This document shows, in pieces, positions 12,502 through 26,953 of a stretch of 64,000 bases of DNA (positions within the stretch are counted from its first letter, which is position 1; each line of letters opens with the position of its first letter). The DNA comes from Candidatus Latescibacterota bacterium. Lineage in GTDB: Bacteria > Latescibacterota > UBA2968 > GCA-2709665. The DNA is taken from the NCBI GenBank assembly GCA_965203805.1, contig OZ241917.1, forward strand, positions 1,152,001-1,216,000, written 5' to 3'. The notes beneath the pieces are model-generated. The model was not told the DNA's origin and ran no database searches. It saw only the letters and a list, made by a program, of their open reading frames with translations. The position numbers and the translations under genes are program-made.

Positions 12502-12528
12502 CCTGCCTTGCCTGCGGCAGCAGGCAGG
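12502..12528. repeat. CCTGCCT...AGGCAGG palindromic element (variant, intergenic)
   Basis: CCTGCCTTGCCTGCGGCAGCAGGCAGG has the same terminal arms as the two palindromes inside the IS1380 transposase. Confidence 0.55.
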
Positions 12529-23687: not shown

Positions 23688-24371
23688 TTATTCTTCCTGC
23701 ACGAATTCTTCAAGATTCGTCCGCACAACAACTGTCCCGGCGATAAAGTCGTGAACGGCTCGTCGTTTCTTATTTAAAAGCATTGTGACAAACTCAGCAA
23801 ACCACCAAATTATCGCAACAATGGCCGTCCACATTTCCCACGCAGTTGCTGCAACATCTGACCATACATCCTGTCTGGTTATAAACTCACTGATCGAAGC
23901 CCCCATTATCAAATGACAGGACTCATATACAATTAGTGGAGTAATAATAATCAGAGGGATACTATCCCGGAGCAATGCATGTCTGAAAGTAATCGGTTCT
24001 TCAGTTTTATTATCGACGACTTTCACACGTGTGGCTTTCTTTCCTACTGTTTGCCCGAATCGGCCATGCATCCCAATTGTATAAGCCCACCAATAGTAGC
24101 CGCTCACCACATAAATAAAAACGAAGAGCCAGCGAATCATTGCCCAATCTGAAATATCGAGTGATAAATAATAATTGATGAAGGCAGTTATTGGCGCAAG
24201 TACGAAAGCATCAGTACAACTGGCCCACAATCGGGGCCAGAATGTACGATACTTCTGATCAGGAGAAGCCATATACTCCTTATAAAATCGCCAACTGAGA
24301 AACGGAACTATGAAAATTGATCCACCTATTATCAATCCGATAATAAGCAGCAACAGATAAACATATATCAT
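23688..24371 (-). CDS. RDD family membrane protein
   Basis: FWPRLWASCTD, GQTVGKK, RRAVHDFIAGTVVV. Confidence 0.9.
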   Translation of the reverse strand: MIYVYLLLLIIGLIIGGSIFIVPFLSWRFYKEYMASPDQKYRTFWPRLWASCTDAFVLAPITAFINYYLSLDISDWAMIRWLFVFIYVVSGYYWWAYTIGMHGRFGQTVGKKATRVKVVDNKTEEPITFRHALLRDSIPLIIITPLIVYESCHLIMGASISEFITRQDVWSDVAATAWEMWTAIVAIIWWFAEFVTMLLNKKRRAVHDFIAGTVVVRTNLEEFVQEE

Positions 24372-24595
24372 ACGCTGGGACCCCTTCCGCTTAAGCGGGT
24401 GCTACAGTCGATCGATGAACCTCAATGTGAAATAAATCAGGCGGCATTCTGTAGTGCGTTGCAGATTTTGCGGTATTGTTTTTCGGTGTGCTTGTTGCGT
24501 TGGAGACGCAGGGTAAGCCGCCCTTCGGGTCGGATAAGGTGTCCGGCGCGGTTGATGATCTGGAACCGTAGGGTGCGTATGGATTTGAGTGGCCA

Positions 24596-24614
24596 CCTGC
24601 CTGCAGCAGGCAGG
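24596..24614. repeat. 19-bp palindrome CCTGCCTGCAGCAGGCAGG
   Basis: 9-bp perfect arms with a 1-nt centre; sits exactly at a transposase frameshift. Confidence 0.9.
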
Positions 24615-24870
24615 TCGGTTGGTATTTTTCAAGGTGCGATTGCGTTTTGTCAGTCCGGTTTCAATCTGGAAGTTGACCAGGAGGTTGTGCGCGAGAATGA
24701 CGAACTGTTGCCAGGCGCTATTGGCGTCGTAATCGTGTGTGGGGATGGTATCGAAGCTGAGACCGGTCTTGAGTTCGCCGATGGCTTTTTCGTGCACGCC
24801 GCGGCCTGCCATGAAGCGCCAGAGCGCGCGCAACTTGAAGGGTAGATTGGTGGCCACCGCAGCGTATTCG

Positions 24871-24890
24871 CCTGCCTGCCGGCAGGCAGG
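24871..24890. repeat. 20-bp perfect palindrome CCTGCCTGCCGGCAGGCAGG
   Basis: Sits exactly at a transposase frameshift (DGTF^EYAAVATN). Confidence 0.92.
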
Positions 24891-26055
24891 AAGGTGCCGT
24901 CATCGGGGTCGAACAGGTCCAACTGGTAGTTCTTGCGGGTTTTATGGAAGACGCGTTTTCGAAAGATGGCAATGTTGAGGGTGCGTTCCCATTTTTTGAC
25001 CGTCAGCGTTGACGTAAAGCCGTCGACGCCTTTCTCGATGTGCTGCCAGTTGCTGCATTGACGGATTTTGTGCTGTAAGTCCAGGCCTTTCCAAAAGGGC
25101 ACCTTGATGGCATACGAGGCCTTGTTCTTGTCGAGCCTGTTGATCACATCTTTCTTGAAAAAGTCGCCATCCATGCGGAATCGCAGGGAGTAGGCGTGTC
25201 CCAAGCTCTCTTTGATCTGAGAAAACACATCCTTTATAAACTCGATGGAGGCACTGCCATCGTTGATGTTGCCGGGCCGGTTGTGGGCGCGGAGAAAATG
25301 ACCACTGTCGGCCAGGTAGGCGGTAATCGGATAGTAACTGGGGACTTTGCGATGATGCGGATTATACCCGCGGCGGGCGCCGCCGACGCGTTTTCCGGTG
25401 CACAAGACGGTGCCGTCCACGTCGATCGTCAATTTCCGGGCGCGCAACACCTTGATCTTTTGAGCAACAACGTTGGCGTTGAGGGCTTTCAGGGCCTTCA
25501 AACCCTTGTCGGAAAACCGTCTCAGAAACGTGCTCATGCTGCGGGGCGTCGGTAGATCCGTCAGACCGCAGAACCGCTGCAGCAGGGGATCTCCTTTCAA
25601 GAAATCCAGATGTCGCAACCGACGGCCGCCTACCCACAGCAAACCCAACAGAACACGGGAAAGGCTCACCACACCGAAATCGCCGCCAAAGCACGCACTG
25701 CCCAGGTGACGGCGCAATTGCCTGTTCCAATCGATGGTTCGCAAATACCGCATCAACAACTCCAAACCCGCATACGAGGTGAGGCCTTCACCCGTGAATT
25801 CCATCTTCAAATCGTCGTTGACACGCGCGTGCAAATCCGCTTTCTTTCGTCTCACTGTACGTGGCCTTTCGTTTCGGGTGAATTGGGGGTTTCGTCGCTT
25901 CCCAATATACCAAAATGGAAGGCCTTTTCCTATTGAAAAATATAGACTTATCGCCATATTTGCTTCGTCTTCAATACACCGAAATTCATCAACATTATTT
26001 TCACATTGAGGTGAATTCTTGAATAGTCGAACATGGTCGGATTTGAAGGTGGTGA

Positions 26056-26751
26056 GTGGTGGAATCGTGGAGAATATTGGCCTGGTTGATAACCATTGGC
26101 GCCCCGCTTTTTTTCCTGTCTCTCCTGGCGATTCCTCCGATTACCTGGTGGGTCTATAAGCGTTCTTCCGTTTCCTTAGAGCAGCGATATAAGACCTTCT
26201 GGGCCAGGCTTTGGGCGAGTTGGACTGATGGACTGGTCTTGATGCCAGCAGCTCTACTCTTCGCGTACTTACTGGACCCCAAAACTTCATTGTGGGAGAC
26301 CGTACGCTGGCTGGCGGTTATTGTCTTTGTAGCGGATAATACCTATTCCTGGTTCTATTCGATATTTATGCATGGTCGATGGGGCCAGACCATTGGGAAA
26401 ATGGTCACACGGGTAAAGGTTGTCGATGCAACAACCGAGGAACCGATTACCTACAGAAAAGCCTTCCTTCGCGACGCTGTCCCAATTCTGCTCGTATTTC
26501 CATTGCATGCCCATTCGCTCTATCAGTTGATAACTGGCGCCGAATATCAAGGGTTTCAGTCAGATCTGGATCTGAGTGCGCAAGCTGGCGGCAGTGTCTG
26601 GACAGCATTTATTGTCTGGATCTGGTGGTTCGCCGAGATTGTAACGATGCTCACGAATGATAAGCGGCGAGCTTTGCATGATTTTATTGCGGGGACGGTT
26701 GTGGTAAGGACGAATATTGAGGAACCAATGGAGGACGAATCAGGTGCCTGA
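26056..26751 (+). CDS. RDD family membrane protein
   Basis: FWARLWASWTD, GQTIGKM, RRALHDFIAGTVVV. Confidence 0.9.
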   Translation: MVESWRILAWLITIGAPLFFLSLLAIPPITWWVYKRSSVSLEQRYKTFWARLWASWTDGLVLMPAALLFAYLLDPKTSLWETVRWLAVIVFVADNTYSWFYSIFMHGRWGQTIGKMVTRVKVVDATTEEPITYRKAFLRDAVPILLVFPLHAHSLYQLITGAEYQGFQSDLDLSAQAGGSVWTAFIVWIWWFAEIVTMLTNDKRRALHDFIAGTVVVRTNIEEPMEDESGA

Positions 26752-26953
26752 ACACCAATACGCAACCGGATACACACCAATTGTAACCAGGTGGCCTGAT
26801 TAACCCGATCCTGCAGTGGACGCAGATTGACGATCATTGACAGATTGCGCCAGCCCTCCCGTTCGCCAGGATGCCCTGCCCGCCCTGCTGATTTATCCGA
26901 CCGTGGACTTCCGCATTGTTATTGGAAGTGTCTTCAAGCATACGAGGTCCATC

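What the first reader, a model, noticed from the sequence alone, without database searches (positions are those of the whole stretch)
24596..24890. Two near-identical 19/20-bp palindromes inserted into, and inactivating, an IS1380 transposase
Seen: CCTGCCTGCCGGCAGGCAGG (24871-24890) and CCTGCCTGCAGCAGGCAGG (24596-24614) each sit exactly at a frameshift. Deleting them gives DGTF-EYAAVATN and NTNR-WPLKSIRTLRF, i.e. a clean 459-codon transposase, with no target duplication needed. The IS ends and TSD are intact, and I saw no such palindrome in any chromosomal gene here. Recollection, unverified: LPAGRQ/PACRQAG-type peptide scars occur in mobile-element proteins of other bacteria. Inference: a dedicated system writes or inserts a short hairpin into mobile DNA. 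It could be a host anti-transposon knock-out mechanism or an ultra-minimal REP-like parasite mobilised in trans (e.g. by an HUH/RAYT-like enzyme or an RT). No candidate enzyme lies in this window.
Basis: partly seen in the sequence, partly recalled or inferred. Interest (0 to 1): 0.88.

Follow-up and report, generated by a model that had tools for sequence, protein, structure and literature searches.

The report
Tiny mobile hairpins riddling transposase genes
The two 19/20-base palindromes that split this jumping-gene enzyme are copies of a tiny hairpin element that inserts cleanly into DNA, is found with the same sequence in many unrelated bacteria and phages, and spreads by a mechanism nobody has identified.

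Summary
Observation confirmed. Both palindromes are real, clean insertions. Two paralogous IS1380 copies in the same genome show the empty sites, with no target duplication, and independent contigs of a public run cover both.

They are not a special mark on this IS. They are the minimal members of a hairpin family, CCTGCCTG(C)...(G)CAGGCAGG, 19-58 bp, with 187 copies in this genome. Long forms are mostly intergenic. Short forms sit mostly in transposase genes (IS1380, IS5, IS630, IS21), a group II intron, a MITE and other hairpins. Thirty insertion sites have empty paralogous sites. The target here is G|C.

The identical 19/20-mer occurs in 88 of 401 sampled genomes of a candidate-phyla-radiation phylum, at 602 copies in one gammaproteobacterial genome, and in 51 phage contig stretches.

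"Inactivating" is doubtful. An IS5 element carrying a frameshifting 19-mer has five near-identical copies at five sites. Hairpin-bearing transposase ORFs also show dN/dS of 0.15-0.26.

No mobilising enzyme was found. The two RAYT genes have their own REPs, and the densest genome has no Y1 transposase.

Best reading: a trans-mobilised, REP/SDR-like micro-element. A host anti-transposon system is unlikely.

The parts
24416..24419 (.). Target-site duplication TGAA of the IS (left copy)
   Evidence: Sequence read; the same 4 bases stand at 26012-26015.
24420..26011 (-). IS1380-family insertion sequence, 1592 bp including the two palindromes. Terminal inverted repeats CCTCAATGTGAAA(T/A)AA at 24420-24435 and 25996-26011.
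   Evidence: Pfam DDE_Tnp_1_4 on the ORF pieces. Two paralogous copies in the genome.
24437..25957 (-). Transposase reading frame, broken into three frames by the two insertions. It reads as one open frame when both are left out.
24596..24614 (.). 19-bp hairpin element CCTGCCTGC-A-GCAGGCAGG. Inserted between codons CGA and TGG of the transposase, shifting the frame by +1.
   Evidence: Empty site in paralog 1894746-1896284; the same insert is present in paralog 3754270-3755832. Bridged by X1 contig record 3.
24871..24890 (.). 20-bp perfect palindrome CCTGCCTGCC|GGCAGGCAGG. Inserted inside codon TTC (TT|C), shifting the frame by +2.
   Evidence: Empty site in both paralogs. Bridged by X1 contig record 4.
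26012..26015 (.). Target-site duplication TGAA of the IS (right copy)
12502..12528 (.). Possible degenerate member of the same hairpin family (CCTGCCTTGCCTGCGGCAGCAGGCAGG, 7-bp terminal stem). Not examined further.
   Evidence: Listed at genome 1164502-1164528 by the one-mismatch scan.

Best explanation
The two palindromes are independent insertions of a very small, non-autonomous hairpin element. I call it the CCTGCCTGC hairpin family.

Shown:
- The element is a defined sequence, 5'-CCTGCCTG(C)...(G)CAGGCAGG-3'. Its minimal forms are 19 and 20 bp.
- It is added to DNA exactly at its own ends, with no target duplication and no loss of target bases.
- In this genome it goes preferentially between G and C. 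In another genome the preference is between A and T.
- It lands often in other repeated or mobile DNA and in copies of itself.
- It occurs with identical arms in distant phyla and in phage contigs.
- It carries no gene, and no longer parent element exists in this genome.

Inferred:
- It is mobilised in trans by a nuclease/ligase that recognises the hairpin and cuts at its foot. A single-strand, HUH-type (Y1 or Y2) enzyme is the leading but unproven candidate.
- IS elements and phages are its vehicles between genomes.

Effect on this IS1380 copy: the insertions shift the transposase frame twice, so standard decoding cannot give the full protein. Evidence from other hairpin-bearing IS suggests such insertions attenuate an IS rather than kill it.
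For: Real, clean insertions:
- Empty sites for both window palindromes.
- Genome-wide, 187 exact-arm hairpins fall into 121 site clusters, and 30 of these have at least one empty paralogous site. All 33 distinct filled/empty junctions have a gap of 0.
- No flanking direct repeat of 5 bp or more in 0 of 187 (G000), 0 of 50 (G035), 1 of 72 (other genomes) and 2 of 59 (viral).

Defined ends and target:
- Base -1 is G in 55 of 66 pooled flanks, and A in 9.
- In G035, -1 is A in 62 and G in 36 of 112.

Family:
- Lengths are 19 (12 copies), 20 (3), 27 (14), 31 (46), 33 (65), up to 58.
- Nested copies, and hairpin-to-hairpin deletions.

Preference for mobile or repeated DNA:
- Both flanks are repeated for 116 of 187 hairpins and for 54 of 121 site clusters. 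The figures are 69 of 1500 random positions and 193 of 1500 random intergenic positions.
- Hosts are IS1380 (two families), IS5, IS630, IS21, a DUF772 transposase, a group II intron, a roughly 190-bp MITE, and the REP hairpin of a RAYT.

Spread:
- 17 of 31 relatives have the family.
- The exact 19/20-mer is in 10 of 151 genomes of the same phylum and 88 of 401 genomes of the phylum of a 0.9-Mb CPR genome.
- It stands at 602 copies in G035 and in 51 IMG/VR stretches.
- The reversed-pattern control gave 0 in every genome.

Non-autonomous:
- No longer element with these termini: 1 dubious pair among 270 x 286 solo half-sites.
- No protein family recurs next to the hairpin in 80 loci.

An HUH enzyme is possible: every genome tested that has more than 1 copy has a Y1 or Y2 gene. 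G000 has 2 Y1, G034 has 2 Y1, G032 has 2 Y1, G033 has 1 Y1, G035 has 9 Y2.

Attenuation rather than killing.
Against: No enzyme is linked to the element.
- RAYT#1 orthologs in 5 genomes are flanked by GAGGGCA..TGCCCTC palindromes with GTAG. RAYT#2 orthologs are flanked by GCGGGCGTCCCGCCCGC-type hairpins. Neither carries this family.
- G035 has no Y1. G000, G001 and G016 have no Y2.
- G015 has 100 family copies but only a weak RAYT-like hit and a Y2 hit with a stop.
- HUH genes are common anyway; Y1 rings in 6 of 14 control genomes.

Other points against:
- No orientation bias by replichore, which IS200/IS605-type single-strand transposition would predict.
- Insertion into the loops of other hairpins is enriched only modestly and not everywhere. 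G000 gives 7 of 132 against 47 of 528 controls; G035, for stems of 7 or more, gives 7 of 50 against 7 of 200.
- Identical arms across phyla are hard to explain by any one known transposase family.
- A few sites (3 of 131) have 7-8-bp flanking direct repeats.
- My gene map is a crude home-made caller.
- Site clusters are an upper bound on independent events.
Confidence: 0.55

Rival explanations
1. Host anti-transposon defence: a dedicated host system writes the hairpin into mobile DNA to knock out transposases.
For: Genic copies in G000 lie almost only in MGE genes. In G035 one 344-codon rve transposase ORF carries 7 hairpins and another carries 3, against a genome average of about 1 per 6 kb. 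Enrichment in repeated DNA holds at the level of site clusters.
Against: Hairpin-bearing IS keep spreading: the IS5 element has 5 copies at 99.8-100% identity with 5 different TSDs, all carrying 3 hairpins, and there is no clean copy. ORFs sharing hairpins evolve under purifying selection. Most family members are intergenic (136 of 154 long forms), and 11 of 21 CPR sites lie in no frame of 70 aa or more. Identical targets exist in both filled and empty states. No candidate system was found. Loss of insertions in useful genes by selection explains the MGE bias among genic copies.
Confidence: 0.1
2. Tolerated 'mini-intron' or recoding element: the hairpin is neutralised during expression. Possible routes are removal from the RNA, skipping by RNA polymerase or the ribosome, or hairpin-induced +1/-1 frameshifting. 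Interrupted transposases would then still be made, possibly as a brake that benefits the IS.
For: The two IS1380 copies that share the 19-mer differ at 89 sites, have no stop or indel, and give dN/dS 0.26. Only 5.7% of random-substitution simulations stay open. Two G035 copies share three 19-mers: 19 differences, Sd 12.5, Nd 6.5, dN/dS 0.15. The IS5 element with a frameshifting 19-mer transposed at least 4 times. In-silico excision restores 18 of 33 short-hairpin sites to long open frames.
Against: In a Saccharibacteria FtsK the 20-mer is read in frame (LPAGRQA), and removing it would break the gene, so there it is translated. No take-off/landing codon match exists at the three sites inspected by eye in the sequences. 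19 and 20 nt need opposite frameshifts. Sharing could also come from gene conversion or repeated insertion at one site. No RNA data: RNA runs X16 and X17 laid nothing.
Confidence: 0.12
3. No dedicated enzyme: the hairpin is copied from existing copies by replication template switching or gene conversion. Stalling at hairpins and 1-3-nt microhomology (ccG / Cgg) would help.
For: The G000 target consensus (C/G)CG|CG(G/C) equals the usual flanks of donor copies. Hairpin-to-hairpin recombination is seen: 1369844 fuses the flanks of 434584 and 434717, and there is an 87-bp loss in IS630 copies. There are no TSDs.
Against: The ends are exact even where the flanks give no homology: A|T, G|A and G|T sites. 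In other phyla the flanking bases are complementary in only 21 of 72 sites. Arms identical across phyla and bursts to 602 copies argue for specific recognition.
Confidence: 0.1
4. Excision footprints: the palindromes are the two terminal inverted repeats left behind by a larger transposon that has gone.
For: The 9+1/2+9 layout looks like two abutted transposon ends. 3 of 131 sites outside G000 have 7-8-bp flanking direct repeats.
Against: No element with these termini exists in G000. 30 site clusters have clean empty sites without TSD. The family includes 27-58-bp forms with varied inner hairpins.
Confidence: 0.03
5. Sequencing or assembly artefact.
For: Short GC-rich palindromes can be created or lost by some pipelines.
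Against: Independent Logan contigs bridge both sites. The 19-mer is shared by a paralog that is 8% diverged. The family has many sequence variants. It appears in assemblies from many studies, including isolate genomes.
Confidence: 0.01

Closest known systems
REP / REPIN elements with RAYT (TnpA_REP) transposases (Nunvar 2010 PMC2817692 and Corneloup 2021 PMC8266576: search listing and abstract only; Bertels & Rainey 2011 PMC3116915: abstract and passages)
   Same: Short GC-rich palindromes in tens to hundreds of copies, mostly intergenic for the long forms, non-autonomous, thought to move as hairpins without target duplication. This genome also has two canonical REP-RAYT sets.
   Different: No GTAG or CGTC tag. 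Not flanking any RAYT. The minimal unit is 19-20 bp. The same sequence occurs in different phyla and in phages, whereas REPs are lineage-specific (recalled). It is frequent inside transposase ORFs.
Small dispersed repeats (SDR) of Nostocaceae, Elhai et al. 2008 Genome Res 18:1484. Not held in the library. Its content is recalled; it is seen only as a citation and one sentence in PMC5861425 and in the reference list of PMC3116915.
   Same: Recalled: 21-27-nt hairpin-forming repeats that behave as mobile DNA, nest in other mobile elements, and have no known transposase.
   Different: Unrelated sequence. PMC5861425 states that SDRs are confined to one cyanobacterial lineage, whereas this element crosses phyla. 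I could not compare insertion anatomy because the paper could not be read.
Intragenic REPs and Rickettsia palindromic elements (Di Nocera et al. 2013, PMC3733652; passages read)
   Same: Palindromic repeats found inside protein-coding genes and translated in frame. This parallels the 27/30/33/36-nt forms here and LPAGRQA in FtsK.
   Different: Those inserts are GTAG/CGTC REPs or elements of 100 bp or more in housekeeping genes. Here many inserts are frameshifting 19/20-mers, and in G000 and G035 they concentrate in transposases. Additional file 3 of that paper, the list of target ORFs, could not be seen.
MITEs mobilised by DDE transposases
   Same: Two inverted ends and no gene; many copies; found nested in other elements.
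   Different: No target-site duplication and no parent IS with matching ends.
Rolling-circle HUH transposons: IS91/ISCR and Helitrons (features recalled)
   Same: Insertion without duplication between specific bases (Helitrons insert between A and T); a terminal GC-rich hairpin; G035 carries 9 IS91-like Y2 genes.
   Different: G000, G001 and G016 have no Y2 gene. The element is only a hairpin, with no 5' end motif.
Programmed translational bypass elements: T4 gene 60 (bioRxiv 10.1101/2022.08.31.505936, search listing and abstract only) and mitochondrial 'byps' (recalled)
   Same: Short mobile inserts with a hairpin inside coding sequences that do not abolish the gene product.
   Different: No matched take-off and landing codons at the sites inspected. 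The inserts are 19-20 nt. One 20-mer is demonstrably read in frame.

Membership tests
REP/REPIN-RAYT system | Imperfect palindrome of 20-40 bp in many copies | tested here: met
   187 exact-arm copies of 19-58 bp. RNA-parameter fold energies are -13 to -37 kcal/mol.
REP/REPIN-RAYT system | Conserved GTAG (or CGTC) tetranucleotide at one end | tested here: not met
   The flanks show only G|C (55 of 66), with no tetranucleotide tag. By contrast, the palindrome next to RAYT#1 does carry GTAG.
REP/REPIN-RAYT system | Cognate RAYT gene flanked by the repeats in inverted orientation | tested here: not met
   One hairpin lies 3' of RAYT#1 in G000 only; 0 of 5 orthologous loci have it. Both RAYTs are flanked by other palindromes. 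G035, with 602 copies, has no Y1_Tnp.
REP/REPIN-RAYT system | Extragenic location | tested here: inconclusive
   136 of 154 long forms are intergenic, but 21 of 33 short forms lie in genes. This rests on my own crude gene map.
MITE (DDE-mobilised) | Target-site duplication flanking terminal inverted repeats | tested here: not met
   33 of 33 filled/empty junctions have no duplication. Flanking repeats of 5 bp or more occur in 0 of 187 G000 sites.
MITE (DDE-mobilised) | Autonomous parent IS with the same termini | tested here: not met
   One dubious pair only in G000.
IS200/IS605-derived hairpin elements (PATE-like) | Insertion orientation biased to one replication strand | tested here: not met
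   Both orientations occur in both replichores for all asymmetric subfamilies.
IS200/IS605-derived hairpin elements (PATE-like) | Insertion 3' of a fixed tetra- or pentanucleotide | tested here: not met
   Only the bases at -1 and +1 are strongly constrained, and differently in G000 (G|C) and G035 (A|T). There is no preference in other genomes.
Translational bypass element | Matching take-off and landing codons around the insert | tested here: not met
   IS1380 site 2 is CGA...AGG, site 1 is TTC...GGC, and the IS5 site is CCC...GGC. These were read from the sequences.
Self-splicing intron (group I/II) | Catalytic RNA core | tested here: not met
   19-20 nt is far too short for a catalytic core. 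Rfam hits in the host loci are to the host group II intron and to tRNAs, not to the hairpin.
IS1380 family (the host element) | DDE_Tnp_1_4 transposase, terminal inverted repeats, 4-5-bp TSD | tested here: met

The most novel reading that the evidence does not exclude
A 19-20-bp palindrome is a pan-bacterial micro-transposon and perhaps the smallest mobile DNA known. It moves by an undescribed hairpin-specific cut-and-join machinery and travels between phyla on IS elements and phages. It colonises transposase genes so densely (up to 7 per ORF) because it is tolerated or neutralised during expression. In effect it would be a bacterial counterpart of the tiny internal eliminated sequences or bypass elements known in eukaryotic systems.
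Probability: 0.3. Interest if true: 0.9.

Novelty: new variant of a known kind. Interest (0 to 1): 0.72.

Why it matters
**Insertion anatomy.** How very short palindromic repeats (REP, SDR and the like) spread is a long-standing open question, because filled and empty sites are rarely available. Here, multi-copy IS elements, a MITE and a group II intron act as natural traps. They give 30 site clusters with clean empty sites. The anatomy of insertion can therefore be read directly: exact ends, no duplication, a purine|pyrimidine target.

**Cross-phylum identity.** The same 19/20-mer is in 88 of 401 sampled small candidate-phyla-radiation genomes, in a sponge symbiont, in flavobacterial isolates, in phage contigs, and at 602 copies in one gammaproteobacterium. 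That is unusual for a repeat family. It also makes the search for the enzyme tractable by phylogenetic profiling in roughly 1-Mb genomes.

**Consequences for IS biology and annotation.** Transposases carrying frameshifting hairpins may still be expressed. If so, that would bear on recoding and on how IS activity is tuned. It would also affect annotation, since such genes are now called pseudogenes and LPAGRQ-type peptides appear in protein databases.

Tried and rejected
- RNA evidence: metatranscriptome runs X16 and X17 laid no contig on the IS. Nothing can be said about transcripts. Only contigs, not raw reads, were available, so mixed filled/empty alleles could not be sought.
- RAYT link: pursued and rejected as shown.
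- Other TSD-less transposase families in G000: Cas12f1-like_TNB/TnpB 0 hits, Resolvase 0 hits, Y2_Tnp 0 hits. One IS110-like gene at 4837832 has a hairpin about 900 bp downstream; it was not followed up.
- Parent element with the same termini: none.
- A protein family recurring next to the hairpin in 80 loci from other genomes: none beyond unrelated housekeeping families.
- A phage contig with at least 6 copies was inspected for an enzyme. Only noisy GC-rich ORFs were listed, and it was not annotated.
- Replichore/orientation bias: none.
- Targeting of hairpin loops: only a modest enrichment in some sets and none in G000. My first impression from single cases was too strong.
- tRNA idea: in CPR/Omnitrophota loci the 20-mer sits in tRNA-like fragments next to intact tRNAs. 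After in-silico excision, 0 of 74 sites gave a tRNA spanning the junction, so these are fragments, not interrupted functional tRNAs.
- TSD idea: 7-8-bp flanking repeats at 3 of 131 sites, and one more by eye in L222. These are probably insertions within local tandem repeats.
- Gene conversion around the shared IS1380 19-mer: the mismatch-free run around it (38 + 34 nt) is not exceptional. Runs of up to 124 nt occur elsewhere in the alignment.
- Literature: none of 7 exact strings of the palindromes occurs in the library. CCTGCCTGC + palindrome gave one unrelated paper. Phrase searches for palindromic or hairpin insertions, and for bypassing, gave nothing pertinent. This library lacks most subscription journals, so 'not in print' holds only for these searches.
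- Supplements were closed. Additional file 3 of PMC3733652 may list comparable intragenic repeats.
- The structure, complex and protein-homology tools were not used, because the element encodes nothing.
Full report
**1. The observation**

The window holds exactly two matches to CCTGCCTG-N0-12-CAGGCAGG: a 19-mer at 24596-24614 and a 20-mer at 24871-24890. One hundred dinucleotide-preserving shuffles gave none.

They lie in a minus-strand IS1380-family element at 24420-26011. The element has 16-17-bp terminal inverted repeats and a 4-bp TSD, TGAA. Its ORF pieces match Pfam DDE_Tnp_1_4 at profile positions 6-250 and 311-375 of 435. It sits between two RDD-family genes.

The genome is one 5.87-Mb contig at 59% GC. 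It holds two more copies of this IS. One, at 86% identity, lacks both palindromes. The other, at 92%, lacks the 20-mer but has the 19-mer at the same place. The junctions are clean, with no base duplicated or lost.

Contigs built independently from public run X1 bridge both palindromes without gaps. X1 may be the source sample.

**2. The palindromes belong to a large family**

The genome has 187 hairpins with the exact arms CCTGCCTG...CAGGCAGG and up to 45 bases between them. By length there are:
- 12 of 19 bp
- 3 of 20 bp
- 14 of 27 bp
- 46 of 31 bp
- 65 of 33 bp
- the rest up to 58 bp

All share the basal 8-9-bp stem and differ in the inner part.

I mapped genes with a crude codon-usage caller of my own (4159 genes, 82% coding). 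On that map:

| Form | In genes | Intergenic | Excision restores a long open frame with coding signal on both sides |
|---|---|---|---|
| Long (>30 bp), n=154 | 18 | 136 | 3 |
| Short (≤30 bp), n=33 | 21 | 12 | 18 |

The hosts of the short forms are:
- a second DDE_Tnp_1_4 IS (E 1e-118)
- an IS5-family element (DUF772 + DDE_Tnp_1)
- IS630 (DDE_3) in three loci
- an IS21 IstA-like gene
- a DUF772 transposase, which carries a 30-mer in one paralog and a 33-mer at the same site in another
- an ORF-less group II intron (RF02003 + RF00029)

Only one non-MGE host was recognised: a weak GH20-like ORF with an in-frame 33-mer. One 563-aa host has no Pfam match.

**3. Anatomy of insertion**

I blasted the 120-bp flanks of every hairpin against the genome. 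The 187 copies fall into 121 site clusters, an upper bound on independent events. Thirty of these clusters have at least one paralogous empty site. All 33 distinct filled/empty junctions have a gap of exactly zero.

The base before the insert is G in 55 of 66 pooled flanks and A in 9. The base after is the complement. Beyond that there is a weak CCG|CGG context.

No G000 site has a flanking direct repeat longer than 4 bp.

Hairpins are found in several kinds of host sequence:
- Inside hairpins: a 36-mer lies in a 33-mer, and there is a triple nest.
- In a roughly 190-bp MITE, at two different sites, with about 20 empty copies.
- In the loop of the REP hairpin that flanks a RAYT gene. That site is empty in four orthologous loci of three other genomes.

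Two cases show recombination between neighbouring hairpins with loss of what lay between them: 100 bp in one case and 87 bp in IS630 copies.

Near-identical repeats (100% over both 120-bp flanks) differ only by presence of a hairpin. Gain or loss is therefore recent.

**4. Preference for repeated DNA**

Both flanks are repeated elsewhere in the genome at the following rates:

| Set | Both flanks repeated |
|---|---|
| Hairpins | 116 of 187 |
| Site clusters | 54 of 121 |
| Random genome positions | 69 of 1500 |
| Random intergenic positions | 193 of 1500 |

Part of this is hitch-hiking and part may be clustering of repeats. Among genic copies, selection against insertions in useful genes would by itself leave mainly MGE genes.

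**5. Do the insertions kill the IS?**

By standard decoding this IS1380 copy cannot make its transposase. Three results argue that such insertions are not the end of an IS.

(a) The 1310-bp IS5-family element carries a 27-mer, a frameshifting 19-mer that splits the DUF772 domain between profile positions 39 and 41, and a 36-mer. It has five copies at 99.8-100% identity, at five sites with five different 4-bp TSDs. No hairpin-free copy exists.

(b) The two IS1380 copies that share the 19-mer differ at 89 sites of 1326. They have no stop or indel, and dN/dS is 0.26. That is the same as against the hairpin-free copy (0.24 and 0.23). Only 5.7% of 5000 simulations with random substitutions stay open. 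The mismatch-free run around the 19-mer is not exceptional, so a recent conversion tract is not indicated.

(c) In G035, two copies of an rve transposase share three 19-mers, one of which has since mutated. They differ at 19 sites, with Sd 12.5 and Nd 6.5 (dN/dS 0.15) and no stop. A second rve ORF carries 5 hairpins in two copies and 7 in a third. It is fully open after excision, but two copies have a 1-nt gap, and there are too few differences for a meaningful ratio.

Against a general 'splicing' of the hairpin: in a Saccharibacteria FtsK the 20-mer is read in frame as LPAGRQA, and removing it would break the gene. No codon pairs fit ribosomal bypass at the sites I inspected.

I conclude that the hairpins attenuate or are tolerated. 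How that happens is open.

**6. Distribution**

The family is patchy among relatives. Seventeen of 31 genomes have it, with counts from 1 to 151, and several genomes of the same genus have none.

Of 85 matches in the 80 loci returned, 50 are the exact 20-mer and 19 are 19-mers. The hosts are Patescibacteria, Omnitrophota, Bacteroidota (including isolates), Gammaproteobacteria, Planctomycetota, Acidobacteriota and others, often at 35-48% GC. Chance would spread matches over all spacer lengths and centres.

The exact 19/20-mer occurs as follows:
- in 10 of 151 sampled genomes of the window's phylum
- in 88 of 401 sampled genomes of the phylum of G034, a 0.9-Mb CPR genome, with up to 25 copies
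- 602 times in G035
- in 51 IMG/VR stretches, one contig having at least 6 copies

The reversed-pattern control was 0 throughout.

Outside G000 and G035 the flanking bases show no complementarity preference: 21 of 72 and 18 of 59 sites.

In 21 CPR sites examined, 11 lie in no frame of 70 aa or more, and 5 are within 600 nt of a tRNA. Several earlier CPR/Omnitrophota loci have the 20-mer in tRNA-fragment duplicates, with the intact tRNA beside them showing the empty site.

Run metadata place the window's organism in sponge metagenomes.

**7. The enzyme**

G000 has two Y1 (RAYT-like) genes.
- RAYT#1 and its orthologs (77-91% identity) in five genomes are flanked on both sides by GTAG-tagged GAGGGCA..TGCCCTC palindromes. 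The CCTGCCTGC hairpin 3' of it is in G000 only.
- RAYT#2 lies in frame inside a 1252-codon DUF1156-like ORF. It is flanked by GCGGGCGTCCCGCCCGC-type hairpins, also in G008, G011 and G016.

G000 has no TnpB, no resolvase-type recombinase, no Y2 and one IS110-like gene. G035 has no Y1 but has nine IS91-like Y2 hits.

Orientation shows no replichore bias. No parent element and no linked protein family were found.

A hairpin-specific HUH-type activity remains my best guess. The reasons are the clean, TSD-less insertion of a hairpin between a purine and a pyrimidine, and the fact that every multi-copy genome I tested has some HUH transposase. It is not shown.

**8. Comparison and verdict**

The element works like a REP/REPIN or like the small dispersed repeats of Nostocaceae (the latter recalled, since the paper is not held). 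It fails the defining REP-RAYT features that I could test: the tag, the RAYT flanking and lineage specificity. It also fails the MITE feature of a TSD.

None of the exact strings is in the searched literature.

I file it as a new variant of a known kind, namely very small non-autonomous palindromic mobile DNA. Its unusual traits are:
- minimal size
- exact cross-phylum identity
- documented insertion anatomy
- dense colonisation of transposase genes that nevertheless stay under selection

Its 'parasite mobilised in trans' alternative is the better of its two readings, and the 'host knock-out system' is unlikely.

Noticed in passing
G000:C1:4546926-4550684 (L002); orthologs in L035, L036, L037, L038: A RAYT-like Y1 transposase domain lies in frame inside a 1252-codon ORF. 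The ends of that ORF look by eye like a DUF1156-type DNA methyltransferase (no family search was run on them). The RAYT domain is bracketed by inverted GCGG(G/A)CG...CG(C/T)CCGC hairpins. The same arrangement, open frames of 1203-1441 aa, occurs in G008, G011 (twice) and G016. It resembles an intein-like or domesticated insertion.
   Followed up: partly
G000:C1:4532012-4535614 (L001/L023): A canonical REP-RAYT locus. A 201-aa RAYT is flanked by arrays of GTAG-tagged GAGGGCAGGGATGCCCTC palindromes (29 copies genome-wide). The arrangement is conserved around orthologs in G001, G008, G011, G013 and G016.
   Followed up: yes
G000 genome, e.g. 26440-26830, 5075060-5075450: A MITE-like family of about 190 bp with terminal inverted repeats CAGCCCGTTGATAAAGTC...GACTTTTTCAACGGACTG, in about 25-28 copies. 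It serves as a trap for hairpin insertions at two sites.
   Followed up: partly
L003 2250-3008 and L007 2333-3097 (G000 134700-135460, 689630-690400): An apparently ORF-less group II intron of about 760 nt (RF02003 + RF00029), in at least 5 copies. One copy lies next to a tRNA cluster. Copies carry 1-3 hairpin insertions.
   Followed up: partly
window 23688-24371 (-) and 26056-26751 (+): The IS sits between two divergently oriented paralogous RDD-family membrane protein genes (Pfam RDD, E 1e-21 and 1e-19).
   Followed up: no
G000 1369844-1369876; L009/L010 versus L016/L015: Deletions whose end points are two neighbouring hairpins: 100 bp lost in a DDE_Tnp_1_4 IS copy and 87 bp lost in two IS630 copies. 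This suggests hairpin-to-hairpin recombination.
   Followed up: partly
G035 (L164-L169): This gammaproteobacterial MAG also has dRS3-like ATTCCC-N8-GGGAAT repeats and TTCCGG...CCGGAA hairpins with 19-mers inserted at the loop/stem border. A 24-bp palindrome, GCCTGAGTAATA|TATTACTCAGGC, is split at its centre. There are nine IS91-like Y2 genes.
   Followed up: partly
L058 5955-5974 (a Saccharibacteria contig): The 20-mer lies in frame in the variable loop of an FtsK/SpoIIIE-like gene (707 aa) and is read as LPAGRQA.
   Followed up: partly
L044, L039, L082, L061, L093, L081, L213: In CPR, Omnitrophota and one phage contig the 20-mer lies inside partial tRNA-gene duplicates (D-arm or T-loop) next to intact tRNAs. 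In L081 there is an array of tRNA 3' halves.
   Followed up: partly
G000 3.24-3.47 Mb: A region unusually dense in 31-bp family members with conserved flanks (agacctctcccc ... gaccctctcct). At least 25 copies belong to one larger repeat unit, which was not characterised.
   Followed up: no
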